Origin: a bacterium
Lineage (GTDB): Bacteria > Patescibacteriota > Dojkabacteria > SC72
Direction: 5' to 3'
NCBI GenBank assembly: GCA_021108295.1
Contig: JAIORF010000102.1
Span: forward strand, 295,963-359,962
Length of the DNA stretch: 64,000 bases
In this document: positions 52,234 to 64,000 of the stretch, one piece after another
Position numbering within the stretch: the first letter of the stretch is position 1
Layout: each line of letters begins with the position of its first letter
The notes under the pieces: model-generated
What the model saw: only the letters and a program-made list of their open reading frames with translations
Told to the model about the DNA's origin: nothing
The model's database searches: none
Translations under genes and position numbers: made by a program

Positions 52234-52876
52234 ATATATGAAAAACTTACACATTAGAATAACAACAATACTCCTAATCCTACTCACCTACTTCGTTCTA
52301 GTACCCTCACTAATCCTCCAATACGGTAAAAGCAAAATATATACAGACATCAGTAAAATACCAACCTACAACATAGCCATAGTCTTTGGAGCTGGACTAA
52401 AACCAGACGGAACACCAAACGATATGCTAGAAGACAGACTAGACACAGCAGTTGAACTCTACAACGAAGGGAAAATAGAAAAACTCCTCCTCTCTGGAGA
52501 CAACTCCCTAGAAGAATACAACGAACCACAAGCAATGTACGAATACCTCACACTCATCAAAGAACTACCACCAGAAGATGTAGTACGCGACTTTGCAGGA
52601 CTAAGAACATATGACACATGTGCAAGAGCTAAAAACATTTGGAATATAGATGAAGCAATACTCATATCACAAGGCTACCACCTCTCAAGAGCAATATTCA
52701 CATGCAATACGCTAGGAGTAGAAAGTACAGGATTCTCTGCTACCAAAGATATATACATAGGAGAGACATACTACAAACTAAGAGAAATACTAGCTATACA
52801 CAAAGCCCTAATAGACATATATATAATCCACCCTGAATACATAGGGGGAGAAGTAGAGACAGATTTCCTTAATTAA
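52211..52876 (+). CDS. SanA/YdcF-family (DUF218) membrane-anchored protein
   Basis: N-terminal TM. IAIVFGAGLKPDGTPNDMLEDRLDTAVELYNEGKIEKLLLSGDN...TYDTCARA...ISQGYHLSRAIFTC. Confidence 0.6.
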   Translation: MIFRIWSRYMKNLHIRITTILLILLTYFVLVPSLILQYGKSKIYTDISKIPTYNIAIVFGAGLKPDGTPNDMLEDRLDTAVELYNEGKIEKLLLSGDNSLEEYNEPQAMYEYLTLIKELPPEDVVRDFAGLRTYDTCARAKNIWNIDEAILISQGYHLSRAIFTCNTLGVESTGFSATKDIYIGETYYKLREILAIHKALIDIYIIHPEYIGGEVETDFLN

Positions 52877-53877
52877 ACAAACTTCATACCCATAGCTTTC
52901 TCCACTTCACTGATTACCTCCCTTGCATTAGCCTTAGCCAACCTCTTACCCTTCTCTAATACCCCTAATACATAATCATCAGATACTGAAGCCTTCTTCT
53001 TCTGAAAAGCCTTTAGAAACCCTTCCATCACCTCCATCAAAAGGCTCTTAAACTCACCCATTACCTGCTCCCCATCCAAATGCTTCTGTAAGATACTCTC
53101 AAATTCATTTTTCTGTTCATCAGTAGATACATAATCAGCAATTAGCTTCAAACTCTTTAAATCCTCACTCATATCCCCTGCAAAAGCACTCTTTGCTCGC
53201 TTAATCTTCTTGAGAGAAACATCAATATCATCATCCAGTAATATTGCACCATTAGGCTCACTCTTACTCATCTTCTTACCACTACCAGTAAGTGAAAGGA
53301 TATTGATTCCTTCACCACTATCAAGTGGCTTTGAAGCTAGAAATACATCCCCATACTTTTTGTTAAAACGCTTTACCAAATCATTTGTAACCTCTAAATG
53401 AACATACTGATCCTTGCCCACAGGAACATACCTAGAACCCTGAAGTAATATATCAGCAGCCATCATTACAGGGTAAAAAGCAAGAAGAGTATTAGCTGTA
53501 GCTTCACCATTCCCTTTTTTAATTTTCTCTTTAAGAGTAGGTACTCTAAGTAGTTCTGCTACTGTAATTAATCTAGAAAGATATATGGTCAACTTACTAA
53601 CCTCATCCATTATCTGACTCTGCACAAAAAGATCCACCTTCTTTGGATCTAGACCAGCTGCAATGTAATCTTTGATAACGGAAAGAACATTACCCTGAGT
53701 TTCACTAGGCTCTTCAGTTGTAAGACTGTGTAAATCTGCAACAAAAATCATTGGCTTGCCCAATGAACCATCTTGCATAATGCGAAGTATTGGATCAACA
53801 ACACCTATTAGATTAGCAATACTCATACCAGAAGTAGCTCTCATTCCAGTAAATATATCTGTTTTGTAATTTTTCAT
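52873..53877 (-). CDS. trpS: tryptophan--tRNA ligase
   Basis: Class I aaRS. N-terminal TGMRATSGMSIANLIG (HIGH-region variant) and KMSKS (GSGKKMSKSEPN). Confidence 0.9.
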   Translation of the reverse strand: MKNYKTDIFTGMRATSGMSIANLIGVVDPILRIMQDGSLGKPMIFVADLHSLTTEEPSETQGNVLSVIKDYIAAGLDPKKVDLFVQSQIMDEVSKLTIYLSRLITVAELLRVPTLKEKIKKGNGEATANTLLAFYPVMMAADILLQGSRYVPVGKDQYVHLEVTNDLVKRFNKKYGDVFLASKPLDSGEGINILSLTGSGKKMSKSEPNGAILLDDDIDVSLKKIKRAKSAFAGDMSEDLKSLKLIADYVSTDEQKNEFESILQKHLDGEQVMGEFKSLLMEVMEGFLKAFQKKKASVSDDYVLGVLEKGKRLAKANAREVISEVEKAMGMKFV

Positions 53878-53920: not shown

Positions 53921-53952
53921 TTGTGAAAAACAAAAACCCCACATATGTGGGG
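53921..53952 (-). terminator. intrinsic terminator of the trpS leader
   Basis: CCCCACAUAUGUGGGG hairpin (53937-53952) followed on the minus strand by UUUUUGUUUUUC. Confidence 0.6.
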
Positions 53953-53981
53953 TATATAATTCATATGAAAAAACAAAATTA

Positions 53982-54038
53982 CTACCCCAAAAGGTAGCTC
54001 CACCAAAACATTATTGTATTAATCTTATTGTTTTCCAT
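53982..54038 (-). CDS. putative trpS leader peptide MENNKINTIMFWWSYLLG (tandem Trp codons at 54000-54005)
   Basis: 18 codons plus UAG. The two UGG codons sit on segment 1 of the attenuator and the stop codon lies inside segment 2. A TATAAT lies 5 nt upstream of the AUG, which could make the mRNA leaderless. Confidence 0.5.
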   Translation of the reverse strand: MENNKINTIMFWWSYLLG

Positions 54039-54122
54039 ACGTTATTATACAACATCCCTACATTTTAAACTACTTGAGAATAATGTAACATGTATTAGAA
54101 ATTAAAATTAATATACACACCA

Positions 54123-54503: not shown

Positions 54504-56182
54504 AGTGACTCTCTAGCTGTCTCTAACAATTCTAGAAGCAATGTAGCATCCTCCTCGTCTGCAATATTAACTTGCAACGCACTATCAAAAATAGTCGGTG
54601 TAATCTTTGTCTGAATCAATTCCCCCTCTTTGAAATAGTGTGTAAGAACCATCCCCTGCCTTGTACCTATCCATGGAGTCTGATCAAAGTAAAGATTACC
54701 AAGACCATAAAAGATTACTCCATCTCCATACAACTCATACGTCTGTGGCTGATGTGCCTGTGTACCAACTACAATATCTGCACCATAATCAATGGCCTTT
54801 CTAAAAGTCGAAGCCTGTCTATAAACTGGCTTGTAACACAAAGGATAAATCTCATCAGAAGGAGGATAGCTATAACACTCACTAAATTGGAAATCTACAA
54901 TTACAACATCAACCTCATCCCTTATCTCCTCAATATTCTCCTGCATCTTACTCTCAGAGTAAAAATTAGCACCAGCACGAGAAGTATTTGCAATTGCGCT
55001 TGTACCAAGCACACTATCGAAGTAATTATAACCAAGAAATGCTATCTTACTCCCATCAATCTCTACAACATATGGCTTAGCACTATCTTCTGCATCCAAT
55101 CCCCCACCAAAATAGGCTATATCCTCTTCAATATATGTATTTATAGTTTCAGTATTATACTTACTACCAAAATCATTATTATGATTTCCCGTAAGCTCTA
55201 CTACATCCACACCACTTGCAAACAATGTCTCTATATACTCCGGTCTTGAACAAAACTTCATACCACTGTAGCTAGTACAACCCTCTACAAACGAGGTCTC
55301 ACTAGAAACATGGGTAAGATCAGCATCAGCTAGAAATTCTCCTATCAATTCTGCAGGATAGTCATAATCCTTCTTCTGATCCATTACTTGCCCCAACCTT
55401 CTAGTAAGAGCAGTAACTCCAGTCATATTAACCTTAGCTATACCATCTACACCAAAACCGTTACTATCAATATTTACATTCTTTTGTATAATACTAGCGA
55501 TAAAGGCAAGATTGTACTGCTTAGACTCAATAGTCAGTGATACAGGCAAACCACTATCGAACGTATCAAGATAATACTTACCCTCCACCTTAAGTAACTT
55601 AAGTTCTTTACTCAACTCTTCGGGTTTAATTAAACCGATATGATTACCCTCTCCCCCCTCTATACTCTCAATCATACTCTCCACTACCTCTAAGGATATT
55701 TCAGGATAGAAAGAGGTGAGAAACCCTTCATACTCTTCATATGCCAAAATGGATATTAACGTTGAAAAACGCCCACCTATTAGCTCTTTACTAGAGATGG
55801 AATCATCTATCCAATACATATGCCCTACAGGCAAAAGATACTCAGAGAAGAGTGTATACTCCCCTATACCATAATCAATACTTACATCCGCACTCTGTTT
55901 ATTCTCTACAATATTAAACCTTGAAACACCATTAAACTTAATCTTCATTAAATCCGTACTAACCCTTTCCCTATACTCTTCTTTTACTAACTCTCCAATA
56001 TATACATCAAATGTCTCATACATGACTTGGGTCGAATTACCACCCACTACAAAGTCTATTGCATGTTTGGCTAAAGCCCCATCAGTAATGAAGAAATAGA
56101 GAAAAATAGCTAAAAATGGTATAATAGGTATAGGTAGATATATATACCATCTACTTTCCCCTTTCTTTAACTCTTTCTTCAT
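54500..56182 (-). CDS. CapA/PGA-biosynthesis family metallophosphoesterase-like protein
   Basis: Start taken at MKKELKK (56180-56182). N-terminal TM. C-terminal IVVGTQAHQPQTYELYGDGVIFYGLGNLYFDQ is typical of the PGA_cap/CapA family. Confidence 0.6.
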   Translation of the reverse strand: MKKELKKGESRWYIYLPIPIIPFLAIFLYFFITDGALAKHAIDFVVGGNSTQVMYETFDVYIGELVKEEYRERVSTDLMKIKFNGVSRFNIVENKQSADVSIDYGIGEYTLFSEYLLPVGHMYWIDDSISSKELIGGRFSTLISILAYEEYEGFLTSFYPEISLEVVESMIESIEGGEGNHIGLIKPEELSKELKLLKVEGKYYLDTFDSGLPVSLTIESKQYNLAFIASIIQKNVNIDSNGFGVDGIAKVNMTGVTALTRRLGQVMDQKKDYDYPAELIGEFLADADLTHVSSETSFVEGCTSYSGMKFCSRPEYIETLFASGVDVVELTGNHNNDFGSKYNTETINTYIEEDIAYFGGGLDAEDSAKPYVVEIDGSKIAFLGYNYFDSVLGTSAIANTSRAGANFYSESKMQENIEEIRDEVDVVIVDFQFSECYSYPPSDEIYPLCYKPVYRQASTFRKAIDYGADIVVGTQAHQPQTYELYGDGVIFYGLGNLYFDQTPWIGTRQGMVLTHYFKEGELIQTKITPTIFDSALQVNIADEEDATLLLELLETARESL

Positions 56183-56194
56183 ACTATCAATATA

Positions 56195-56222
56195 CCACAG
56201 AAGAAGGCCTGGCATAGGGGTG
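56195..56222. promoter_or_regulatory. copy A of conserved GCCTGGCATAGG-core element (between divergent capA-like and SLT-like genes)
   Basis: Forward ...atataccacagaagaaggcctggcataggggtgtatggtataat. Flanked by TGgTATATT (leftward, 6 nt before the capA ATG) and TGGTATAAT (rightward). Confidence 0.5.
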
Positions 56223-56270
56223 TATGGTATAATATACTATGGGGTGTTACATAAGATTATATTAATAATA

Positions 56271-56882
56271 ATGAAAAATACCTTACAAATAAACAAAAAG
56301 AAGATATTACCCGTTATTACAGGGATACTGTTTGTGGCACTAACTTTAAAAAGTGTTAGTGAAGCTACACCTACATCAATATTAAATCTCGACTATTCTA
56401 GAGATATTACAGTTTCTGCTGCAAATACAGTAGAGATAGAACAAAGCAATATAGAAGATTTAGATATTAACAAAACACATAACACTACCAACACAACTAT
56501 TGCTTCAGCAAGCAATCAAGTAAAAATTGAGAATATTAGGAAATATCTAACAAAGAGGAACTCTCCACTAGCTGACTATGCTAAGGAGTTTGTAGATGCT
56601 GCAAACCATTACGGTATTGACTATAGACTAGTAGCCGCTATCTCCATTATCGAATCTAGTGGTGGTATTCACTGTTTTAGAACCTATAACGCCTGGGGTT
56701 GGGGTAAAAGTGGATTTGACTCATGGGAAGACGGAATATGGAGTGTATCTAAGGGTCTTGGGAAATACTACGCTGGTGGTAGAGATACCCCAGAAAAAAT
56801 TGCAACTAGATACTGTCCTCCAAATGCAGTTAAGTGGGGAAATAATGTATCATACATTATGAACCTAATTGAAAATCAATAA
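56271..56882 (+). CDS. lysozyme-like (SLT/glucosaminidase-type) peptidoglycan hydrolase-like protein, paralog 2
   Basis: Start taken at MKNTLQINKKK (signal/TM). YRLVAAISIIESSGG...YNAWGWGKSG...YCPP shared with 3049-3774. Confidence 0.4.
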   Translation: MKNTLQINKKKILPVITGILFVALTLKSVSEATPTSILNLDYSRDITVSAANTVEIEQSNIEDLDINKTHNTTNTTIASASNQVKIENIRKYLTKRNSPLADYAKEFVDAANHYGIDYRLVAAISIIESSGGIHCFRTYNAWGWGKSGFDSWEDGIWSVSKGLGKYYAGGRDTPEKIATRYCPPNAVKWGNNVSYIMNLIENQ

Positions 56883-56885
56883 CTT

Positions 56886-57578
56886 ATGCAAACTAAGTTA
56901 GCAAAGTATACAATCAGTTACCTCAATGAGCAGGAGTATCATTATCTCAAAAACGAAATCTTCACCAACAATTGTTACTCCTTTGAAACTGACAAGGAAG
57001 ACCCACTCATTATTGATGTTGGAGCACACATTGGCTTATCTATCCTCTATTTCAAAAGAGAATACCCCAACTCAAGAATAGTTGCTTTTGAACCAAATCC
57101 AATTACAGTTCAAGTGCTTAATGAGAATATCTTTAATAATAATCTCGATGATATAGAGATACACGAAAGTGCCATATGGGTAGAAGATGGGATTAAGAAA
57201 ATGTATATCGACAACACAGAACAAGATAGATACTCTGTCGCTTCTTTCAACAAGAATTGTTGGAATGGTACTGTAAAAAGCAAATTGATTAGTGTAAAGA
57301 CAGAAAGATTAGACAAATATGTAAACCAAGATATTGATTTACTCAAGCTAGATATTGAAGGAGCTGAGCAAAGGGTACTGAAGAGTATAAAAAGGTATTT
57401 CTGTAATATTAAGAATATCATTTTCGAATATCACCCTACACATGGCCAAGACATCAAGAAGATATTAGAACTTTTAGATACACATTATGACATTCGCATA
57501 TATCAAAATGGCAAAGAAATTAAAAAGAATATTCCCAACAACAAACTCTTACTAGTAAATGCTACCTATAAAAAGTAA
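56886..57578 (+). CDS. FkbM-family SAM-dependent methyltransferase
   Basis: IIDVGAHIGLSILYF...RIVAFEPNP...LKLDIEGAEQRVL. Confidence 0.7.
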   Translation: MQTKLAKYTISYLNEQEYHYLKNEIFTNNCYSFETDKEDPLIIDVGAHIGLSILYFKREYPNSRIVAFEPNPITVQVLNENIFNNNLDDIEIHESAIWVEDGIKKMYIDNTEQDRYSVASFNKNCWNGTVKSKLISVKTERLDKYVNQDIDLLKLDIEGAEQRVLKSIKRYFCNIKNIIFEYHPTHGQDIKKILELLDTHYDIRIYQNGKEIKKNIPNNKLLLVNATYKK

Positions 57579-58581
57579 GTATCTTACCAAAAAATCTTCC
57601 CCACTTACTTCTAAATATTTTGTATAGAGCGTCACCCAACTTCTTAGGCTCGTGTCTAACCAAACTTCTAGTAAGTGTATCTCCCTTAACCTCCTGAATT
57701 ATAGAGTTCGCTACTAAATCACCTCTTACAATAACCCTATCACCACCATCTGAAAGATCATCTTTAAAAACCTCTTCTCCATCCTCTTTATATCTCCTAA
57801 AGGCATCTTCAGGTAATCTACCATTATTAATCAAAACAAAATCAAACTTCCTTCCTACATAACCCTCCATCATCTCAAGCATACTTTTTTGTGTAAACCC
57901 CCTAGTCTGTCCAATCTTGGACATAAGGTTGGGGATAAAGATAAGGCTAGCTTTTGTTTCTTGCAATGCCTGTGCAATACCAGGAACAATAATATTAGCT
58001 AAAGTTGTTGTATACATATCACCTGGACCTATAATTATAAAATCAGACTCCATTATCTTCTCTATAGCACCCTTATACGCCTTTACTTTCGAGCTAAGAT
58101 AGAACTTCGTAATACTTTTATCAACCTCTGGCTCATCAATTAGATGCTCCCCTTCTACCTTACTCCCATCATCATATTCCGCAACCAGCTTTGTATCATC
58201 AAGTGTCACCGGTAAAATACTCCCTCTCACACTAAATAGATATTTAAACGCTCCAATCGCTTCTATCTCCGAACCTGCAATATCAACCATTGCAATCATC
58301 AAAAGATTTCCCAGTGTATGACCTTTCAGTCCATTACCATCTGAGAATCGATAGGTAAATAAGTCCCTAATCCAATTATTCTCATTCTCCTCTGACAGTG
58401 CAATTATCGATTTCCTTAAATCACTTAGTGGTAATATTCCAAACTCATCTCTAATTACTGCGTTACTTCCTCCATCATCCATCATTCCAACAATGACAGA
58501 GAGATCCAACTCCCCATATCGTTTAAGTCCCTCTAAGACATTTGACGTACCCGTTCCTCCACCTATTAGTGTAATATTCAT
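57562..58581 (-). CDS. YvcK/CofD-like (UPF0052, gluconeogenesis factor family) protein
   Basis: ITLIGGGTGTSNVLEGLKRYGELDLSVIVGMMDDGGSNAVIRDEFGILPLSDLRKSIIAL. Confidence 0.75.
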   Translation of the reverse strand: MNITLIGGGTGTSNVLEGLKRYGELDLSVIVGMMDDGGSNAVIRDEFGILPLSDLRKSIIALSEENENNWIRDLFTYRFSDGNGLKGHTLGNLLMIAMVDIAGSEIEAIGAFKYLFSVRGSILPVTLDDTKLVAEYDDGSKVEGEHLIDEPEVDKSITKFYLSSKVKAYKGAIEKIMESDFIIIGPGDMYTTTLANIIVPGIAQALQETKASLIFIPNLMSKIGQTRGFTQKSMLEMMEGYVGRKFDFVLINNGRLPEDAFRRYKEDGEEVFKDDLSDGGDRVIVRGDLVANSIIQEVKGDTLTRSLVRHEPKKLGDALYKIFRSKWGRFFGKILTFYR

Positions 58582-58638
58582 ATCTAATTATACACAAAGA
58601 TTTCATTAATGTAATGTGGTATAATGGGATATTAATAT

Positions 58639-59178
58639 GTGAATTATCGCAATATGGCTTTAAAAGTTGGCTCAAAGGTTTTTTACCCCACACATGGTGC
58701 AGGATTTATAAAGGATAAGAAGTATATAGAGTTTAATGGTGAAGAGAAAGAGTACTTCGTGTTTGATTTAATCAATAGTCCTTTAGCTATTTCTACCCCC
58801 GTAGAGAATCTTGAGATGCTTGGTATCAGACCTGTACTTAAGTCAACAGAGATTAAAGCAAAAGTTAAAATTCTTAAAAAAACTCCTACCATTAATCCTA
58901 AGAATAAAGATTTCAACGAATTAATCTCTATTTTCGAAGATTTAAACAAGAATGCTGATATTGATTCTGCTATTAGAGTTATACAGCATTGTAATTTTGT
59001 TAAAGCAGAAAGAATTGCAGATGGAAGACTCATTCCTGTTACAATCGAGAAAGAACTTGATAAAGCAATACTAGATATTGTTGGAGAATTGGCTATTTCT
59101 GCAGGGATTAAACTTACTACAGCAGCAGAACAGTTAATGAAGGTCACAGGGATAGAAGAAATTGAAGTAGAGGATTAA
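58639..59178 (+). CDS. CarD/CdnL-family RNA polymerase-binding transcription factor
   Basis: N-terminal KVGSKVFYPTHGAGFI...YFVFDL...ISTPVENLEMLGIRPV is a CarD_CdnL_TRCF-like domain. Confidence 0.7.
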   Translation: MNYRNMALKVGSKVFYPTHGAGFIKDKKYIEFNGEEKEYFVFDLINSPLAISTPVENLEMLGIRPVLKSTEIKAKVKILKKTPTINPKNKDFNELISIFEDLNKNADIDSAIRVIQHCNFVKAERIADGRLIPVTIEKELDKAILDIVGELAISAGIKLTTAAEQLMKVTGIEEIEVED

Positions 59179-59197
59179 TTAACCCACTACTCAACTC

Positions 59198-62155
59198 CTA
59201 CTTCTCAACCGTCAGAGAAACCTTTGCTTTACCCAACTCAAACCTATTACCAACTACACTATCCCCTACCTCAAAACAACTCAACTTCAAATCTTTTTGA
59301 TTTTCACTAAGATATTTCTCTACAATACCCCTAACTTCATCCTCATCAATATTAACAACAAGTTTTATACTATCCTCATAATTAATACCCTCCCCCTTCT
59401 TCCTAGCATTCTGATACTTCCTTACAAAATCATTTATATACCCCTCACTCACAAGCTCCTCTGTTAGATTAATATCCAATGAGACATACTTCTCGTACTC
59501 ACCAATTGTAACAAGACCCTCAACTGGCTTCTCACTATACTCTATCTCTTTTACATTGAGCTCTGATTGTACAATATCTCTAAGAAACTCTTTCTCAATT
59601 GCTACATATACCTTAGACAAAGGTTGTCTTAATTTGAGACCATTATCCTCCCTAATCTTAAGACCATTAGAACATATCTCTCTAACTACCTCCATCTCTC
59701 TTAACAACTCCACATCTATATCTTTCTGTTGAAATACAGGATAATCCTCCAGATGCACAGACTCCAATGCTCCATCTACCCCAGTCTTTACTACAAGATT
59801 TTGATACATCTCTTCAGTAAGAAACGGCATCTGTGGTGCAAATGTTTTAGCAAACAAAACCATAGTTGCATAAAGAGTTTGTAAAGCATCTGTATTACCA
59901 TCTGCAAACCTACCCCTAGACCGTCTAATCCACCACTTAGATATATTATCAATACACGGCTGAATTAACTTCACAGACGCAGGAATATTGTACTCCTCTA
60001 AAGCCTCTGCATATTTCTGAGTAGTCTGCTTCATATATGATTCAATCCACTTATCTAATTTCTCTTCAGAAGTAAATTCTGTAGTAGTTGGCGCCCAATC
60101 ATGCATATTGCTATACAAAGATAGATATCTATAGGTATTCCAAATCGGAATTAACACATCCTTGACCTGATCATTTAAAATATCATCTGACCAATGAATA
60201 TCTCCACCTACCATTATTGAGGAGGACATGATATACAATCGCAATGCCTCACCACCCTTCTCTTCTAAAACAAGTCTAGGATCAGGGTAATTCTCGTACG
60301 ACTTACTCATCTTCCTACCATCATTACCGAACATAACCCCAGTACAAATTACATTCTTATACGGCACATCATCAAAAAGCATTAGAGACATTCTAAAGAG
60401 GACATTAAACCATGCTCTAATCTGTCCAGTATATTCAACAATGAAGTCAGCTGGGTATGCCTGTTCGAAAGCTTCTTTGTTTTCAAATGGATAGTGATGC
60501 TCTGCAAAAGGTACACTACCAGAATCCATCCAACAATCTAATACCTCAGGAATTCTGTGATACTCTTTACCATCTTTCTTAAACACCAATTTATCACACA
60601 CATCCCTATGAAGTGTCATTTTCTTACCCTCAATCCTATACTCCACCTTCCCATCCTCAGTATTAATCTTTTCAATTTGATCAGTATACTCCATCATCTC
60701 TTCTATACTTCCTACCACTATCTGCTCTCCATCTTTACTTTCCCATACTGGCATAACAGTTGCCCAGTATCTACTTCTTGAAATTGCCCAATCAGGAGCA
60801 GTTTCCAATACATTCTTAAATCTTTTCTTAAATGTCTCTGGTATCCAATTTATCTTCTCCTGTAATTTAAGCATCTTAGGTTTAATTTCCTGAATATCTA
60901 CAAAATATGAATCTTGAGACATATATATCAATGGGTTCTTACCTCTGTAGAACGGTAACCTATGCACATATTTCTCACTTCGAAGTAGCTTCCCTTGCTT
61001 TTCTAAATCCTTAGCAACCATAGGGGAAGCATCCCGAATGTATACACCCTTCCAATTTCCATCTAACATATTCCCTGCTTCATCTATATGTACTACATCA
61101 CTTAGCCCCCACTCCTTCCCTAAATTGAAATCCACTTCACCAAATCCAGGTGCTACATGCAATATTCCAGTACCCTCATCCTCAATTACTTCATCCGAAA
61201 GATACACCTTCCAGTCTTTCTCACTAACCTTGTCTACAAAGAAGTCATATGCCGGCTCATACTCGAAACCTTCCAACTCTTTTCCTTTAAGTTCATGTAC
61301 TACCTCATACTCTTCTTCACCAAAGGTATACTCCAATCTACTTGTAGCTACTACTAGGTACTCATCCTTAAACTTCACTATGGAGTAATCAAGATCCTCG
61401 TTCACAACCAAAGCAAAGTTTGCAGGTATAGTCCATGGGGTCGTTGTCCAAACAAGAAGTCTAAGTGGTTTCTTATTTGTATATTTATCAAACTCTTTTG
61501 TCTTAAGCGAAAACTTCACAAATATTGAAAGATCTTCTACATCTTCATAGGTGTCATCCATAGTGACTTCAAAGTTTGATACTGGTGTACAGGTATCTGT
61601 TGAATACATAGAAACTCTTTTCCCTTTGTATATCAAATCCTTATCCCAAATCTGTTTGAAGGCCCATATTACAGACTCATTAAATTCTGGATCCATAGTC
61701 CTGTATGCATTATCCAAATCTACCCATCTACCTAATTTCTCGATATACCATCTCCAGTCCGAAATCCCTTGTTCAACATATGCTCTACACTCCTGTACAT
61801 ACTTATCTACCCCTATCCTTGTCTCCACATCCACCCTATCTTTTACTTCCAACTTCTTATTCACTCTTGCCTCAATTGGTAATCCATGACAATCCCATCC
61901 CCACACTCTTCGCACCCTATATCCTTTCATTGTCCAATATCTTGGGATTATATCCTTAGGTATTGATACCAACAATGATCCGTAGTGTGGAGTACCTGTA
62001 ACAAATGGAGGACCATCTACAAATGAATATCTCTTATCCTCTGACCTATTCTCAATACTCTTCTTAAAGATATTTCCCTTTTTCCAAAACTCATTTATCC
62101 TATCTTCCATCACACTAAACTGTGCTCTTGGATTTACTTCTGGTATTTTTCCCAT
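59198..62155 (-). CDS. ileS: isoleucine--tRNA ligase (type 2, eukaryote/archaea-like)
   Basis: FVDGPPFVTGTPHYGSLL (HIGH-region variant of type-2 IleRS). KMSKS (GRKMSKSYENYPDP). 985 aa. Confidence 0.9.
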   Translation of the reverse strand: MGKIPEVNPRAQFSVMEDRINEFWKKGNIFKKSIENRSEDKRYSFVDGPPFVTGTPHYGSLLVSIPKDIIPRYWTMKGYRVRRVWGWDCHGLPIEARVNKKLEVKDRVDVETRIGVDKYVQECRAYVEQGISDWRWYIEKLGRWVDLDNAYRTMDPEFNESVIWAFKQIWDKDLIYKGKRVSMYSTDTCTPVSNFEVTMDDTYEDVEDLSIFVKFSLKTKEFDKYTNKKPLRLLVWTTTPWTIPANFALVVNEDLDYSIVKFKDEYLVVATSRLEYTFGEEEYEVVHELKGKELEGFEYEPAYDFFVDKVSEKDWKVYLSDEVIEDEGTGILHVAPGFGEVDFNLGKEWGLSDVVHIDEAGNMLDGNWKGVYIRDASPMVAKDLEKQGKLLRSEKYVHRLPFYRGKNPLIYMSQDSYFVDIQEIKPKMLKLQEKINWIPETFKKRFKNVLETAPDWAISRSRYWATVMPVWESKDGEQIVVGSIEEMMEYTDQIEKINTEDGKVEYRIEGKKMTLHRDVCDKLVFKKDGKEYHRIPEVLDCWMDSGSVPFAEHHYPFENKEAFEQAYPADFIVEYTGQIRAWFNVLFRMSLMLFDDVPYKNVICTGVMFGNDGRKMSKSYENYPDPRLVLEEKGGEALRLYIMSSSIMVGGDIHWSDDILNDQVKDVLIPIWNTYRYLSLYSNMHDWAPTTTEFTSEEKLDKWIESYMKQTTQKYAEALEEYNIPASVKLIQPCIDNISKWWIRRSRGRFADGNTDALQTLYATMVLFAKTFAPQMPFLTEEMYQNLVVKTGVDGALESVHLEDYPVFQQKDIDVELLREMEVVREICSNGLKIREDNGLKLRQPLSKVYVAIEKEFLRDIVQSELNVKEIEYSEKPVEGLVTIGEYEKYVSLDINLTEELVSEGYINDFVRKYQNARKKGEGINYEDSIKLVVNIDEDEVRGIVEKYLSENQKDLKLSCFEVGDSVVGNRFELGKAKVSLTVEK

Positions 62156-62159
62156 TTGA

Positions 62160-62420
62160 TTACTTTTAATATTATTTAAACAAAAAGCCCCTCATTAGAA
62201 ACTAATATACTTTAACATATTAATCTCTAACAAGGGGCGTATTTTACGCGGTACCACCCTTAGTTCTAAATTACATTACTGTAATCTACTTTTAAACCAC
62301 CTACATGGTTTGGATATATTTCGGTTATCTTCCGTTAGATTCTACTTACCCTAAGGCTTTCTTTCCACCACTCACCAGTGATAGCTGGGTCAATGTGTTA
62401 ACAAATTATATCACACCAAG
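62160..62420 (-). promoter_or_regulatory. T-box riboswitch leader upstream of ileS
   Basis: Minus-strand RNA contains AACUAAGGGUGGUACCGCG (forward 62247-62265), matching the T-box consensus AAUUAGGGUGGNACCGCG. It is immediately followed by the terminator helix GCCCCUUGUUAGA...UCUAAUGAGGGGC and CUUUUUGUUU. Leader length to the ATG is ~245 nt. Confidence 0.7.
62178..62239 (-). terminator. T-box leader intrinsic terminator
   Basis: Hairpin gcccctcattaga...tctaacaaggggc (62187-62239) with the U-run at 62178-62186 on the minus strand. Confidence 0.6.
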
Positions 62421-62433
62421 CCTGGCATAGGAA
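62405..62433. promoter_or_regulatory. copy B of GCCTGGCATAGG element with extended -10 TGATATAAT oriented toward the ileS T-box leader
   Basis: Minus-strand reading CCTATGCCAGGCTTGGTGTGATATAATTTGT. Confidence 0.5.
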
Positions 62434-62490
62434 TTTATTCTGTTGTATAGGGGGAAAAGAAGCAAATATACGCTTAAACCACACTATAGG

Positions 62491-62525
62491 AGGCCTATGC
62501 CAGGCCTGCTGTGATATACTGTCCT
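62491..62525. promoter_or_regulatory. copy C of the element (inverted relative to B) with extended -10 TGATATACT oriented toward pepF
   Basis: Forward GGCCTATGCCAGGCCTGCTGTGATATACTGTCCTC, then ATG at 62527. Confidence 0.5.
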
Positions 62526-62526
62526 C

Positions 62527-64000
62527 ATGAATTGGAATCTAAAACTTCTTTACAAGGGTCTTGATGATCCCCAGATAGACAAGGATATTGAGCTATCTAC
62601 TCGGGCTGTTAACACCTTCATCTCAAACTGGAAAGGGAACAAGGAATATCTTAAAGACATCTCTACCCTCAAAAAAGCATTAGATGAGAAAGAACAGCTT
62701 TTCACAAAGTATGGGATATTAACAAAGCCCCACTACTACCTATTTCTTAGGAAGGAAACTGACTTAAACAATACGGAGCTCAAGGCAAGGATTAACAAAA
62801 TTTCTCAAAAAGGGATTAGATTAGGAAATGACTTGCAGTTTTTCTCTATAGATCTGTCTAAAATACCAAAGGCTCAACAAGAAATCTTTATAAATGCTAC
62901 AGAGCTTAGAGAGTACAAACATTACTTAGAAACACTTTTTGCGAATGCTAAATATATCCTCACAGACAAGGAGGAAAAGGTCTTTAATCTTACTGCTAGC
63001 ACGTCTTTTGGGAATTGGACTCGTATGATAGAAGAGCTACTTTCGAAACAGAGCGTTACGATAATTGATGAGGAGCAAAAGAGAAAGAAAGTCTCTTACA
63101 ATGAGATCTCTAAGTATCTTGATTCTACAAACAAGAGTGTAAGAGACAAAGCAGCTAAGGAGTTGAACAAAGTAAACAAGAAATATATTGAAATTGCGGA
63201 GTATGAGATGAATTCCATACTGGAAAGAAAACAGATAGGTGATGAGTACAGAGGGATTGAGAGAGTAGATCTTTCAAGACATTTGAGTGACGATATGGAT
63301 AGTGAAGTGGTAGATAGTTTGGTGGAGGTAGTTACTAAGAATTTCGATATATCAAAAGCTTACTACAAGAAGAAAGCCAAGATGCTAAAACAAAAAACTC
63401 TTGGATATCATGAGAGAAATGTACCTGTAGGAAAGATAGATACGAAGTATGATTTTGATACAAGTATTGCCCTAGTTAAGAAAGTGTTTGGTAATCTAGA
63501 CTCTGAGTTTGAGAAAATTGTAAAAGACTTTGAAAAGAATGGTCAGTTTGATGTGTTTCCTAAGGCTAACAAAAGTGGTGGTGCATATTGTATTTCTACG
63601 AATAAGAACTTACCTACATATCTACTGCTTAATCATAATGGGAAGCTAAACGATGTCCTCACTATCGCTCATGAGTCTGGTCATGGTATTCATTCGGAGT
63701 TGGTAAAAGGACAAAATTCTTTTAACGACGGCTATTCTCTAGCACTGGCAGAAGTAGCTAGTACATTCTTTGAAGACTTTGTATTGAAAGAAGTTTTAGA
63801 AGATATTAAAGATGAGAAACTGAGAAAGGTTGTTTTAATGGAAAGAAGGAATGGGGATATTAGTACGATATTTAGACAGGTAGCTTTCTATAATTTCGAA
63901 ATGGAACTACATACAACCTTTCGAGAGAAAGGATATCTTTCCCATAGTGAAATCTCTGATATCTTTGTAAAGCATATGGTGTCTTACTTAGGGGATAGTG
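62527..64000 (+). CDS. pepF: oligoendopeptidase F / M3-family metallopeptidase (partial; runs off window end)
   Basis: MNWNLKLLYKG... The open frame reaches the window end. Zinc motif IAHESGHGIH (HEXXH). Confidence 0.8.
   Translation, partial: MNWNLKLLYKGLDDPQIDKDIELSTRAVNTFISNWKGNKEYLKDISTLKKALDEKEQLFTKYGILTKPHYYLFLRKETDLNNTELKARINKISQKGIRLGNDLQFFSIDLSKIPKAQQEIFINATELREYKHYLETLFANAKYILTDKEEKVFNLTASTSFGNWTRMIEELLSKQSVTIIDEEQKRKKVSYNEISKYLDSTNKSVRDKAAKELNKVNKKYIEIAEYEMNSILERKQIGDEYRGIERVDLSRHLSDDMDSEVVDSLVEVVTKNFDISKAYYKKKAKMLKQKTLGYHERNVPVGKIDTKYDFDTSIALVKKVFGNLDSEFEKIVKDFEKNGQFDVFPKANKSGGAYCISTNKNLPTYLLLNHNGKLNDVLTIAHESGHGIHSELVKGQNSFNDGYSLALAEVASTFFEDFVLKEVLEDIKDEKLRKVVLMERRNGDISTIFRQVAFYNFEMELHTTFREKGYLSHSEISDIFVKHMVSYLGDS

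What the first reader, a model, noticed from the sequence alone, without database searches (positions are those of the whole stretch)
62160..62420. T-box riboswitch with canonical antiterminator box upstream of type-2 ileS
The minus-strand leader contains AACUAAGGGUGGUACCGCG, a near-perfect T-box consensus. Its UGGU bulge is complementary to an ACCA 3' end. A GC-rich hairpin plus U-run terminator follows, and the leader is ~245 nt. T-box control is characteristic of Firmicutes and a few other phyla. Finding it here, alongside a mechanistically different Trp leader-peptide attenuator at trpS only 8 kb away, is an interesting regulatory combination.
Basis: partly seen in the sequence, partly recalled or inferred. 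Interest (0 to 1): 0.5.

Follow-up and report, generated by a model that had tools for sequence, protein, structure and literature searches.

The report
Short-stem T-box terminator switch at ileS
The leader of the isoleucyl-tRNA synthetase gene in this ultrasmall (Dojkabacteria/CPR) bacterium is a real tRNA-sensing T-box riboswitch, but of the stripped-down short-Stem-I type so far described as a translational switch in Actinobacteria, here joined to a transcription terminator.

Summary
The T-box motif, UGGU bulge, hairpin plus U-run and a ~243-nt leader lie on the minus strand at 62398-62178, upstream of a type-2 ileS (59198-62155).

It is a T-box, but not a canonical one. Rfam RF00230 scores 47.2 bits (gathering score 93; E 3e-7 window-wide) because 76 Stem I model positions are replaced by 6 nt. 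Stem I is a K-turn-like base, a 4-bp helix and a 6-nt apical loop CUAUCA (Ile specifier AUC plus A). Stem II with its S-turn, the IIA/B pseudoknot, Stem III and the antiterminator follow.

Across 28 distinct leaders from Dojkabacteria-like genomes and metagenomes, 99.6% of pair cells are paired and 18 of 28 pairs show compensatory changes. All 37 AT-rich leaders end in a 20-26 bp terminator (13 bp in L080) that overlaps the antiterminator, followed by a U-run.

This is the Class III ("ultrashort") decoding architecture, described as translational and Actinobacterial, here with a transcriptional expression platform in Patescibacteria.

Side findings: a conserved trpS leader-peptide attenuator, in-situ replacement of ileS behind a retained leader, and a smaller aspS T-box in relatives.

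Verdict: a new variant of a known kind, of moderate interest.

The parts
62405..62413 (-). Extended -10 promoter element TGATATAAT; predicted transcription start about 62398
   Evidence: Read from the sequence. TGATATAAT (TGATATACT in L007) lies 7-9 nt upstream of Stem I in 10 of 10 distinct genome-derived leaders. The start site is inferred, not mapped.
62369..62397 (-). Ultrashort Stem I: C-stem CAC/GUG, K-turn-like AUU bulge with tandem GA/GA, 4-bp helix CCAG/CUGG, 6-nt apical loop CUAUCA
   Evidence: The Rfam alignment deletes 76 Stem I model positions. RNAalifold on an unfitted MAFFT alignment predicts both helices. Pair counts are 100% paired with compensatory changes in 4 of 7 pairs. 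The K-turn is inferred from sequence only.
62380..62382 (-). Specifier codon AUC (Ile), followed by the conserved purine A at 62379
   Evidence: AUCA is present in all 12 genome-derived leaders found independently of any leader pattern, through IleRS. In the 29 metagenome loci it was part of the search pattern. It matches the downstream ileS.
62336..62367 (-). Stem II: lower helix UGGA/UCUA, S-turn strands AAGAA and AGUAGA, upper helix GCC/GGU
   Evidence: lower helix 100% paired, 3 of 4 pairs with double changes; upper helix 98.8% paired, 3 of 3 pairs with double changes. The S-turn motifs are invariant or nearly so, but they were part of the metagenome search pattern.
62313..62334 (-). Stem IIA hairpin (62334-62322) and IIB pseudoknot: loop GAUA (62329-62326) pairs with UAUC (62316-62313)
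   Evidence: Twelve different loop tetramers are seen, and nearly all have a Watson-Crick partner in the same register. A strict Watson-Crick partner is found in 21 of 27 distinct sequences, against a mean of 2.6 (max 8) after shuffling and 1.9% with mismatched partners. All 4 IIB pairs show double changes.
62295..62310 (-). Extra hairpin AACCAUGUAGGUGGUU between the pseudoknot and Stem III; not part of the Rfam model
   Evidence: Rfam treats it as an insertion. It is present in most relatives with varied stems (GACC/GGUC, AGCUA/UAGUU), is absent from the L006/L009/L074 and L077/L083 types, and is the only hairpin in the L004/L005 type. Read by eye; not formally counted.
62266..62289 (-). Stem III (GUAGAUUAC AGUAAU GUAAUUUAG) with loop AGUAAU
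   Evidence: Aligned to the Rfam Stem III at high posterior probability. The loop AGUAAU/AGCAAU recurs in most relatives. Stem III is absent in the L004- and L006-type leaders.
62233..62260 (-). T-box antiterminator: A1 AGGG/CCCU, 7-nt bulge UGGUACC (UGGU at 62256-62253), A2 GCGUA/UACGC
   Evidence: A1 is invariant, and 2 of the 3 counted A2 pairs show double changes (GC to AU in 11 sequences). The constrained fold is -7.0 kcal/mol.
62178..62238 (-). Intrinsic terminator: 23-bp hairpin (62238-62187) plus U-run UUUUUGUUU (62186-62178). Its 5' arm overlaps the A1 3' strand and the last 2 nt of A2
   Evidence: -29.8 kcal/mol. The same geometry (start 2 nt before the A1 3' strand, then a U-run) is found in 37 of 37 AT-rich leaders, with different stem sequences.
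59198..62155 (-). ileS, type-2 isoleucyl-tRNA synthetase (985 aa), monocistronic
   Evidence: TIGR00392 764 bits; Pfam tRNA-synt_1, Anticodon_1 and DUF5915. It is flanked by a divergent peptidase-M3 gene from 62527(+) and a convergent CarD-like gene at 58639-59178(+).

Best explanation
This is a tRNA-Ile-sensing T-box riboswitch that controls ileS by transcription attenuation. Transcription starts about 7 nt after an extended -10 promoter. The nascent RNA forms a very short Stem I that presents the Ile codon AUC (plus a 3' A) in a 6-nt apical loop. Stem II, through its S-turn, and the IIA/B pseudoknot pack against it to form the anticodon-binding pocket, as in the solved Actinobacterial ileS T-boxes. 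There is no distal platform to dock the tRNA elbow. If the bound tRNA-Ile(GAU) is uncharged, its 3' ACCA pairs with UGGU in the T-box bulge and stabilises the weak antiterminator (about -7 kcal/mol), so RNA polymerase reads through into ileS. If the tRNA is charged, or absent, the far more stable 23-bp terminator (about -30 kcal/mol) forms instead; it uses the same CCCU strand. Transcription then stops at the U-run, about 23 nt before the start codon. What is shown: sequence motifs, helices with covariation, mutually exclusive terminator and antiterminator, and the gene context. What is inferred: tRNA binding, the charge-sensing outcome, the transcription start site, and that termination rather than translation is the regulated step.
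For: RF00230 matches end to end, with the antiterminator and Stem III at high posterior (E 2.4e-9 locally; 3.1e-7 window-wide). The AUC+A specifier matches the regulated gene. UGGU is complementary to ACCA; A73 in bacterial tRNA-Ile is general knowledge, not tested here. The leader is conserved upstream of ileS in 11 of 12 genome loci whose IleRS is at least 55% identical and for which upstream DNA is available, and in 28 further metagenome loci. On 28 distinct sequences, 99.6% of cells are paired (85.4% in shuffles, 0 of 500 reaching the observed value; 30-47% when partners are slid), 18 of 28 pairs have double changes, and the covariation score is 0.469 against 0.182. RNAalifold recovers the same nested helices on an unfitted alignment. 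The pseudoknot passes an independent shuffle control. In 37 of 37 AT-rich leaders a terminator of -21 to -35 kcal/mol starts 2 nt before the A1 3' strand and is followed by a U-run, while the antiterminator is only -3.6 to -7.2 kcal/mol. These values resemble those TBDB reports for transcriptional T-boxes (PMC7778990 and its preprint). The hairpin ends 23-35 nt before the start codon and contains no ribosome-binding site.
Against: The Rfam score is only half the family's gathering score. Reviews state that transcriptional T-boxes generally need the elbow-binding platform for fast tRNA capture and treat short Stem I as a feature of translational T-boxes (PMC7583486; PMC10482949). By that view, a platform-less T-box ought to work poorly co-transcriptionally. 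No tRNA-Ile gene is on any contig I hold, so the anticodon and discriminator match is assumed. Alignment A3 was hand-registered, and the IIB 3' strand was located by complementarity. The metagenome sequences were retrieved with a pattern that fixes the unpaired motifs, so conservation of those motifs in that set is circular. There is no experimental evidence.
Confidence: 0.82

Rival explanations
1. It is a translational switch like the Actinobacterial ultrashort ileS T-boxes. The long hairpin would act as a sequestrator that blocks ribosome access, and the U-run would be incidental.
For: The decoding domain has the Class III architecture, which the literature associates with translational control. 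A GC-rich leader caught by the same motif pattern (L065) shows no terminator in the 67 nt available.
Against: The hairpin ends 23-35 nt upstream of the start codon and does not include a Shine-Dalgarno-like sequence or the AUG. A U-run directly follows the hairpin in 37 of 37 AT-rich leaders even though the stem sequences differ. The region between the U-run and the AUG is not conserved.
Confidence: 0.07
2. It is an ordinary canonical (Class I) T-box with a long Stem I, as in Firmicutes ileS leaders, and the low Rfam score is only sequence divergence.
For: The antiterminator box is near consensus, and Stem II, IIA/B and Stem III are all present.
Against: Only 29 nt lie between the predicted start site and Stem II. 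The promoter sits 7-9 nt upstream of Stem I in 10 of 10 leaders, so there is no room for a ~90-nt Stem I. Rfam deletes 76 model positions. The specifier is in a 6-nt terminal loop closed by a covarying 4-bp helix.
Confidence: 0.02
3. It is a decaying or non-functional remnant, or a chance match, with the terminator acting constitutively or not at all.
For: One complete Dojkabacteria genome (L013) and all other CPR lineages sampled do without it.
Against: Covariation across 28 distinct sequences maintains every helix. The specifier and the bulge are invariant. The leader was kept intact even where the ileS coding sequence itself was replaced. The window-wide E-value is 3.1e-7.
Confidence: 0.02

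Closest known systems
Class III ('ultrashort Stem I') ileS T-box riboswitches of Actinobacteria (Mycobacterium tuberculosis, M. smegmatis, Nocardia farcinica)
   Same: Short Stem I without the elbow-docking double T-loop platform. The Ile specifier plus a 3' purine sits in a 5-6-nt apical loop. Stem II with an S-turn, the IIA/B pseudoknot, Stem III and a T-box bulge UGGN are all present. It controls ileS only (PMC10482949, PMC7583486, bioRxiv 10.1101/2023.02.28.530422). One motif pattern retrieved both the AT-rich leaders and a GC-rich Actinobacteria-like one, L065.
   Different: The expression platform is an intrinsic terminator plus U-run, not a Shine-Dalgarno sequestrator (against PMC1262725). 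The host is Patescibacteria (Dojkabacteria), not Actinobacteria. It is AT-rich. There is a K-turn-like GA/GA base in Stem I, and an extra hairpin lies between the pseudoknot and Stem III. I could not align it to the solved RNAs because no reference sequence was available to me.
Class I canonical transcriptional T-boxes (Bacillus subtilis tyrS; Firmicutes ileS leaders; Rfam RF00230)
   Same: Terminator/antiterminator switch with the same geometry and similar energies. Same T-box consensus, Stem II S-turn, IIA/B pseudoknot and Stem III. It regulates an aminoacyl-tRNA synthetase gene.
   Different: The long Stem I is missing: no specifier internal loop, AG bulge or distal loop platform (76 model positions deleted). 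The score is 47 bits against a gathering score of 93.
Class II glyQS T-boxes
   Same: A reduced T-box acting at transcription termination.
   Different: glyQS keeps the long Stem I and its platform and drops Stem II. This leader does the reverse.

Membership tests
T-box leader (Rfam RF00230) | The covariance model reaches the curated gathering score | tested here: not met
   47.2 bits against 93. The match is nonetheless significant (E 3.1e-7 window-wide), and the deficit is explained by the deleted Stem I.
T-box leader (Rfam RF00230) | Antiterminator with a 7-nt bulge carrying UGGN complementary to the tRNA 3' NCCA | tested here: met
   AGGG-UGGUACC-GCG...CGC-CCCU at 62260-62233. A1 is 4 of 4 and A2 3 of 3 paired in all leaders, and A2 covaries.
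T-box leader (Rfam RF00230) | Specifier codon matching the amino acid of the regulated gene, followed by a purine | tested here: met
   AUC followed by A at 62382-62379, upstream of ileS. Invariant in the 12 leaders found through IleRS alone.
T-box leader (Rfam RF00230) | A mutually exclusive terminator (or sequestrator) that shares a strand with the antiterminator | tested here: met
   The terminator 5' arm starts 2 nt before the A1 3' strand in 37 of 37 leaders: -21 to -35 kcal/mol against -3.6 to -7.2 for the antiterminator.
T-box leader (Rfam RF00230) | Long Stem I with a distal platform (interdigitated T-loops) that stacks on the tRNA elbow | tested here: not met
   Stem I is 29 nt in total, and 76 model positions are deleted.
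T-box leader (Rfam RF00230) | Binding of uncharged cognate tRNA causes read-through | not testable with these tools
   This needs in vitro transcription or reporter assays. No tRNA-Ile gene is on any held contig.
Class III / ultrashort ileS T-box | Short Stem I with the specifier in a penta- or hexanucleotide apical loop and no elbow platform | tested here: met
   6-nt loop CUAUCA closed by the covarying 4-bp helix CCAG/CUGG. Definition from PMC10482949.
Class III / ultrashort ileS T-box | Stem II with an S-turn, plus the IIA/B pseudoknot | tested here: met
   That they are functionally required is not testable here.
Class III / ultrashort ileS T-box | Regulates ileS and responds to tRNA-Ile | tested here: met
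   The downstream gene is IleRS wherever enough downstream DNA is held, in two (possibly three) IleRS lineages. The tRNA response is inferred.
Class III / ultrashort ileS T-box | Translational expression platform (Shine-Dalgarno sequestrator and anti-sequestrator) | tested here: not met
   There is an intrinsic terminator plus U-run, and no ribosome-binding site lies in the hairpin. The literature says Class III 'mostly' regulates translation, so this feature may not be strictly defining.
Type-2 isoleucyl-tRNA synthetase | IleRS catalytic core with the type-2 C-terminal domain in place of the zinc-binding C-terminus of type 1 | tested here: met
   TIGR00392 764 bits. The next-best matches are MupA/MupB (511-519 bits). 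Pfam finds DUF5915 at residues 865-985 and no zf-FPG_IleRS.

The most novel reading that the evidence does not exclude
Dojkabacteria carry a previously undescribed, lineage-specific set of transcription-terminating T-boxes that have no tRNA-elbow docking platform. The ileS leader combines a Class-III decoding module with a terminator. Close relatives also have an aspS leader with neither a long Stem I nor a Stem II. If both work as they appear to, the assumed kinetic requirement for the elbow contact in co-transcriptional tRNA sensing is not general. Something else would have to buy the time for tRNA capture, such as the unusually long terminator, the extra hairpins, or slow or pausing polymerase in these organisms.
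Probability: 0.5. Interest if true: 0.68.

Novelty: new variant of a known kind. Interest (0 to 1): 0.55.

Why it matters
There are three reasons.

(1) Mechanism. Current reviews argue that transcriptional T-boxes need the Stem I elbow platform so that tRNA binds before polymerase reaches the terminator, and that short Stem I's are tolerated only in translational T-boxes. A conserved, covarying, platform-less T-box joined to a terminator is a natural counter-example. It is only ~220 nt long and easy to test in vitro.

(2) Distribution and annotation. T-boxes are usually listed for Firmicutes, Actinobacteria, Chloroflexi, Deinococcus-Thermus and a few Proteobacteria, and I found no paper linking them to Patescibacteria/CPR. 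At 47 bits against a gathering score of 93, Rfam-based pipelines miss this class. TBDB's short-Stem-I model was applied to Actinobacteria (and to Stem-I-truncated Class I hits). RNA-based regulation in CPR genomes may therefore be under-counted.

(3) Evolution. The same decoding module occurs in Actinobacteria and in a CPR lineage, in both cases at ileS and next to a trpS leader-peptide attenuator. The leader also survives replacement of the ileS gene behind it. This suggests T-box leaders behave as portable regulatory cassettes.

Tried and rejected
- The default Rfam gathering-score scan found no T-box. Only the E-value mode did.
- A plain MAFFT alignment of whole leaders (A1) misaligned the L006/L009 long Stem II and the L012 insertion. 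It was not used for counts. I used a hand-registered, N-padded alignment (A3) and checked it against RNAalifold on an unfitted alignment.
- I considered building a covariance model. It was not needed, because regex anchors and Rfam sufficed.
- I looked for a tRNA-Ile gene in the window and in 40 loci and found none.
- I tried to read Sherwood 2015 (PMC4313828), Sherwood 2018 (PMC5899468), Vitreschak 2008 (PMC2271356) and Suddala & Zhang 2019 (PMC6641993). None is held. I therefore cannot exclude that a few short-Stem-I T-boxes with terminators were already listed for Actinobacteria.
- I tried to obtain an M. tuberculosis or N. farcinica T-box sequence from paper texts and supplements for a direct alignment. 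None was available.
- I tried to place the second IleRS lineage among the fetched genome loci. The best match was only 46% identical (Peregrinibacteria), so its origin is unresolved.
- For the aspS mini-leader I first read AAC (Asn) in a 7-nt loop as the specifier. I rejected this because the triplet is not conserved (UAC, UAA in relatives), whereas GAC/GAU plus A is.
- Two 3-mismatch T-box-core hits in the window (50212 and 56033) lie inside ORFs and are at the chance level.

Full report
**1. What is in the sequence**

All features are on the minus strand.

- The string AACUAAGGGUGGUACCGCG lies at 62265-62247.
- Its UGGU (62256-62253) is complementary to ACCA.
- A perfectly paired 23-bp hairpin (62238-62187) is followed by UUUUUGUUU (62186-62178).
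- The ileS ATG is at 62155.
- An extended -10 element TGATATAAT (62413-62405) puts the 5' end of the RNA near 62398, so the leader is about 243 nt.

The exact 13-nt T-box core occurs once in the window. The only other hits need three mismatches, lie inside ORFs, and are at the chance level. The leader folds much better than shuffled sequence (z = -5.05).

**2.

Rfam's default scan of the window reports nine tRNAs and no T-box. In E-value mode, RF00230 matches 62402-62230(-) end to end at 47.2 bits. E is 2.4e-9 on the 501-nt stretch and 3.1e-7 for the whole window against all 4227 families. There it is the only non-tRNA hit.

The score is half the gathering score of 93. The alignment shows why: 76 model positions of Stem I are replaced by 6 nt. 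Stem II, Stem IIA, Stem III and the antiterminator align at high posterior probability. So this is a T-box, but not a canonical one.

**3. Gene and organism**

The downstream ORF (59198-62155) is IleRS: TIGR00392 scores 764 bits against a cutoff of 621. It has the DUF5915 C-terminal domain and no zinc-finger C-terminus, and its next-best matches are MupA/MupB, so it is type 2.

The gene is monocistronic. It sits between a divergent oligoendopeptidase-F-like gene (from 62527, + strand) and a convergent CarD-like gene.

The closest IleRS loci in a one-genome-per-species collection are Candidatus Dojkabacteria/Patescibacteria MAGs, at up to 89% identity.

**4. Anatomy (coordinates)**

| Element | Coordinates (minus strand) | Description |
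|---|---|---|
| Stem I | 62397-62369 | 3-bp C-stem CAC/GUG; AUU bulge and tandem GA/GA (K-turn-like, from sequence only); 4-bp helix CCAG/CUGG; 6-nt apical loop CUAUCA holding AUC (62382-62380) plus A |
| Stem II | 62367-62336 | Lower helix; conserved S-turn strands AAGAA and AGUAGA; short upper helix |
| Stem IIA | 62334-62322 | Loop GAUA pairs with UAUC (62316-62313) to form the IIB pseudoknot |
| Extra hairpin | 62310-62295 | Not in the Rfam model |
| Stem III | 62289-62266 | Loop AGUAAU |
| Antiterminator | 62260-62233 | A1 AGGG/CCCU; bulge UGGUACC; A2 GCGUA/UACGC |
| Terminator + U-run | 62238-62178 | 23-bp hairpin, then UUUUUGUUU |

The terminator's 5' arm begins 2 nt before the A1 3' strand, so terminator and antiterminator exclude each other. 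The energies are -29.8 and -7.0 kcal/mol.

**5. Comparative evidence**

The leader sits upstream of ileS in 11 of the 12 genome loci whose IleRS is at least 55% identical and for which upstream DNA is available. It is absent from one complete Dojkabacteria genome (L013). It is also absent from the Daviesbacteria, Peregrinibacteria, Gracilibacteria, Berkelbacteria and other loci. A Dehalococcoidales locus has a canonical long T-box.

A metagenome scan with a pattern made only of the unpaired motifs returned 29 more loci. Twenty-eight are AT-rich with the same architecture. One is GC-rich and Actinobacteria-like.

Results on a hand-registered alignment of 28 distinct leaders (A3):

- 99.6% of pair cells are standard pairs, against 85.4% in column shuffles (0 of 500 reach the observed value) and 30-47% when partners are slid by 1-3 columns.
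- 18 of 28 pairs show changes on both sides.
- The covariation score is 0.469 against 0.182.
- Every helix except the invariant A1 covaries.

I had to locate the IIB 3' strand by complementarity, so I ran a separate control. A strict Watson-Crick 4-mer partner is found in 21 of 27 distinct sequences. The mean after shuffling the downstream segment is 2.6 (max 8). The rate is 1.9% when a loop is paired with another sequence's downstream segment.

RNAalifold, run on a plain MAFFT alignment of eight leaders with no structural input from me, predicts the same Stem I, Stem II and IIA helices.

All 37 AT-rich leaders have a terminator of 20-26 bp (13 bp in L080), at -21 to -35 kcal/mol. In all of them it starts at the same position relative to A1 and is followed by a U-run, although the stem sequences differ. 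The antiterminators are -3.6 to -7.2 kcal/mol.

The promoter is at a fixed distance in 10 of 10 genome-derived leaders. That leaves no room for a long Stem I.

**6. Mechanism**

The best-supported reading is classical T-box antitermination with a reduced decoding module. The tRNA-Ile(GAU) anticodon pairs with AUC in the apical loop, held in a pocket made with the Stem II S-turn and the pseudoknot. An uncharged 3' ACCA pairs with UGGU and stabilises the antiterminator. Otherwise the terminator forms and transcription stops at 62186-62178.

The helices, motifs, mutual exclusivity and gene context are shown. tRNA binding, charge discrimination, the start site and the level of control are inferred.

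A translational mechanism is unlikely. The hairpin ends 23-35 nt before the start codon, contains no ribosome-binding site, and is always followed directly by a U-run.

**7. Comparison with what is known**

In the four-class scheme of PMC10482949, the decoding domain is Class III: a short Stem I, the specifier in a 5-6-nt apical loop, and dependence on Stem II. That class is exemplified by the N. farcinica and M. tuberculosis ileS leaders and is said to regulate 'mostly' translation.

[quoted passage not shown] It explains the short Stem I of translational T-boxes by their relaxed kinetic demands.
- PMC1262725 describes the Actinobacterial ileS T-boxes as having Shine-Dalgarno-sequestering hairpins 'instead of terminators'.
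- TBDB ran its short-Stem-I model on Actinobacteria and on Stem-I-truncated Class I hits.
- I found no paper that mentions T-boxes together with Patescibacteria or CPR.

[quoted passage not shown] It fails two tests: the Rfam score threshold and the long Stem I. It matches Class III in its decoding domain but not in its expression platform or host.

One caveat applies. I could not read Sherwood et al. 2015, whose abstract (from my memory) says 'many', not all, of the Actinobacterial leaders were predicted to be translational. A few terminator-type short leaders may already be on record.

**8. The 'regulatory combination'**

The trpS leader (about 54052-53925, minus strand) does encode MENNKINTIMFWWSYLLG*, followed by CCCCACAUAUGUGGGG plus a U-run. 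A relative keeps WW at the same positions with a different terminator stem. However, PMC1262725 reports the same pairing in Actinobacteria: classical attenuators at trpS and unusual T-boxes at ileS. The combination has a precedent.

**9. Side findings**

(a) In five metagenome loci the genes on both sides of ileS are syntenic with the window at 56-73% identity and the leader is conserved. L077's terminator is identical to the window's. Yet IleRS is only 38-42% identical, and it is also type 2. The coding sequence was evidently replaced in situ behind a retained leader.

(b) Contig L073 and four relatives carry a second, much smaller T-box upstream of a non-discriminating AspRS.
- Rfam gives 47.1 bits, covering only Stem III and the antiterminator.
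- About 45 nt precede Stem III.
- A GAC/GAU+A triplet lies near the 5' end.
- The bulge reads UGGU or UGGC.
- A terminator is present.
- There is no Stem II and no long Stem I.
This lies outside the four described classes. It rests on only four distinct sequences and is not in the window.

(c) More distant relatives (L012, L015) read CGGU in the bulge, and L080 lacks the pseudoknot.

**10. Verdict**

This is a real, conserved, structurally well-supported T-box. I rate it a new variant of a known kind, a Class-III decoding module with a terminator in a CPR lineage, and of moderate interest. It is a ready-made test case for whether the tRNA-elbow contact is really needed for co-transcriptional sensing.

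Noticed in passing
window 53925-54052 (minus strand), upstream of trpS (52873-53877): A Trp leader-peptide attenuator. It has an extended -10 box, an 18-codon ORF MENNKINTIMFWWSYLLG* with tandem UGG codons, then CCCCACAUAUGUGGGG plus a U-run. The GGGG at the end of the ORF could pair with the terminator's CCCC. L078 conserves it as MRNKTLNTNMIWWFYLKG* with a different terminator stem, CCCCUCUUUGAGGGG.
   Followed up: partly
L077, L071, L060, L059, L070 compared with window 56100-63999: The genes flanking ileS are syntenic with the window at 56-73% identity and the T-box leader is conserved (L077's terminator is identical). IleRS, however, is only 38-42% identical, and it is also type 2 with DUF5915. 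This points to in-situ replacement of the ileS coding sequence behind a retained leader. Which lineage is ancestral is unresolved.
   Followed up: partly
L073:853-1000(+); also L085, L086, L087, L088, L089, L090 upstream of the AspRS gene: A second, minimal T-box-like leader upstream of a non-discriminating AspRS. It has a promoter, about 45 nt containing GAC or GAU plus A near the 5' end, Stem III, GGGG-UGG(U/C)ACC, and a terminator plus U-run. There is no Stem II, no pseudoknot and no long Stem I, so it lies outside the four described T-box classes. It is conserved in 4 distinct sequences and absent from a relative at 68% identity. The window has no aspS.
   Followed up: partly
L012:2262-2454 and L015:2817-2983: More distant Patescibacteria ileS leaders of the same short-Stem-I terminator type. 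Their bulge reads ACGGUAC (CGGU, with C opposite tRNA A76) and their specifier loop is 7 nt, UUAUCA(C/G). L012 has an inserted hairpin UCGCGAAAGCGA where the K-turn would be.
   Followed up: no
L004/L005/L057/L064 type, L006/L009/L074 type, L077/L083 type and L080, compared with window 62266-62310: The two hairpins between the pseudoknot and the T-box are modular. Some relatives keep only the first, some only the second, and some neither. L080 lacks the IIA/B pseudoknot altogether. Where Stem III is present, its loop is nearly always AGUAAU, which hints at a tertiary contact.
   Followed up: no
L013 (Dojkabacteria KatS3mg084, complete genome) and L016-L055: The ileS T-box is patchy. It is absent from one complete Dojkabacteria genome and from all other CPR lineages sampled (Daviesbacteria, Peregrinibacteria, Gracilibacteria, Berkelbacteria). 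A Dehalococcoidales locus (L038) has a canonical long T-box.
   Followed up: partly
window 62230-62402; L073:800-956: Both Dojkabacteria T-boxes score about 47 bits against an RF00230 gathering score of 93. Rfam-based genome annotation will therefore miss this whole group.
   Followed up: yes
L065 (1.3-kb GC-rich metagenome contig): The motif pattern derived from the AT-rich leaders also retrieved a GC-rich leader. It has the same Stem I/Stem II/IIA-B arrangement (7-nt loop UGAUCAC, IIB UCGG/CCGG) and no terminator in the 67 nt available. It is presumably of the Actinobacterial translational type, which would link the two groups by homology of the decoding domain.
   Followed up: no
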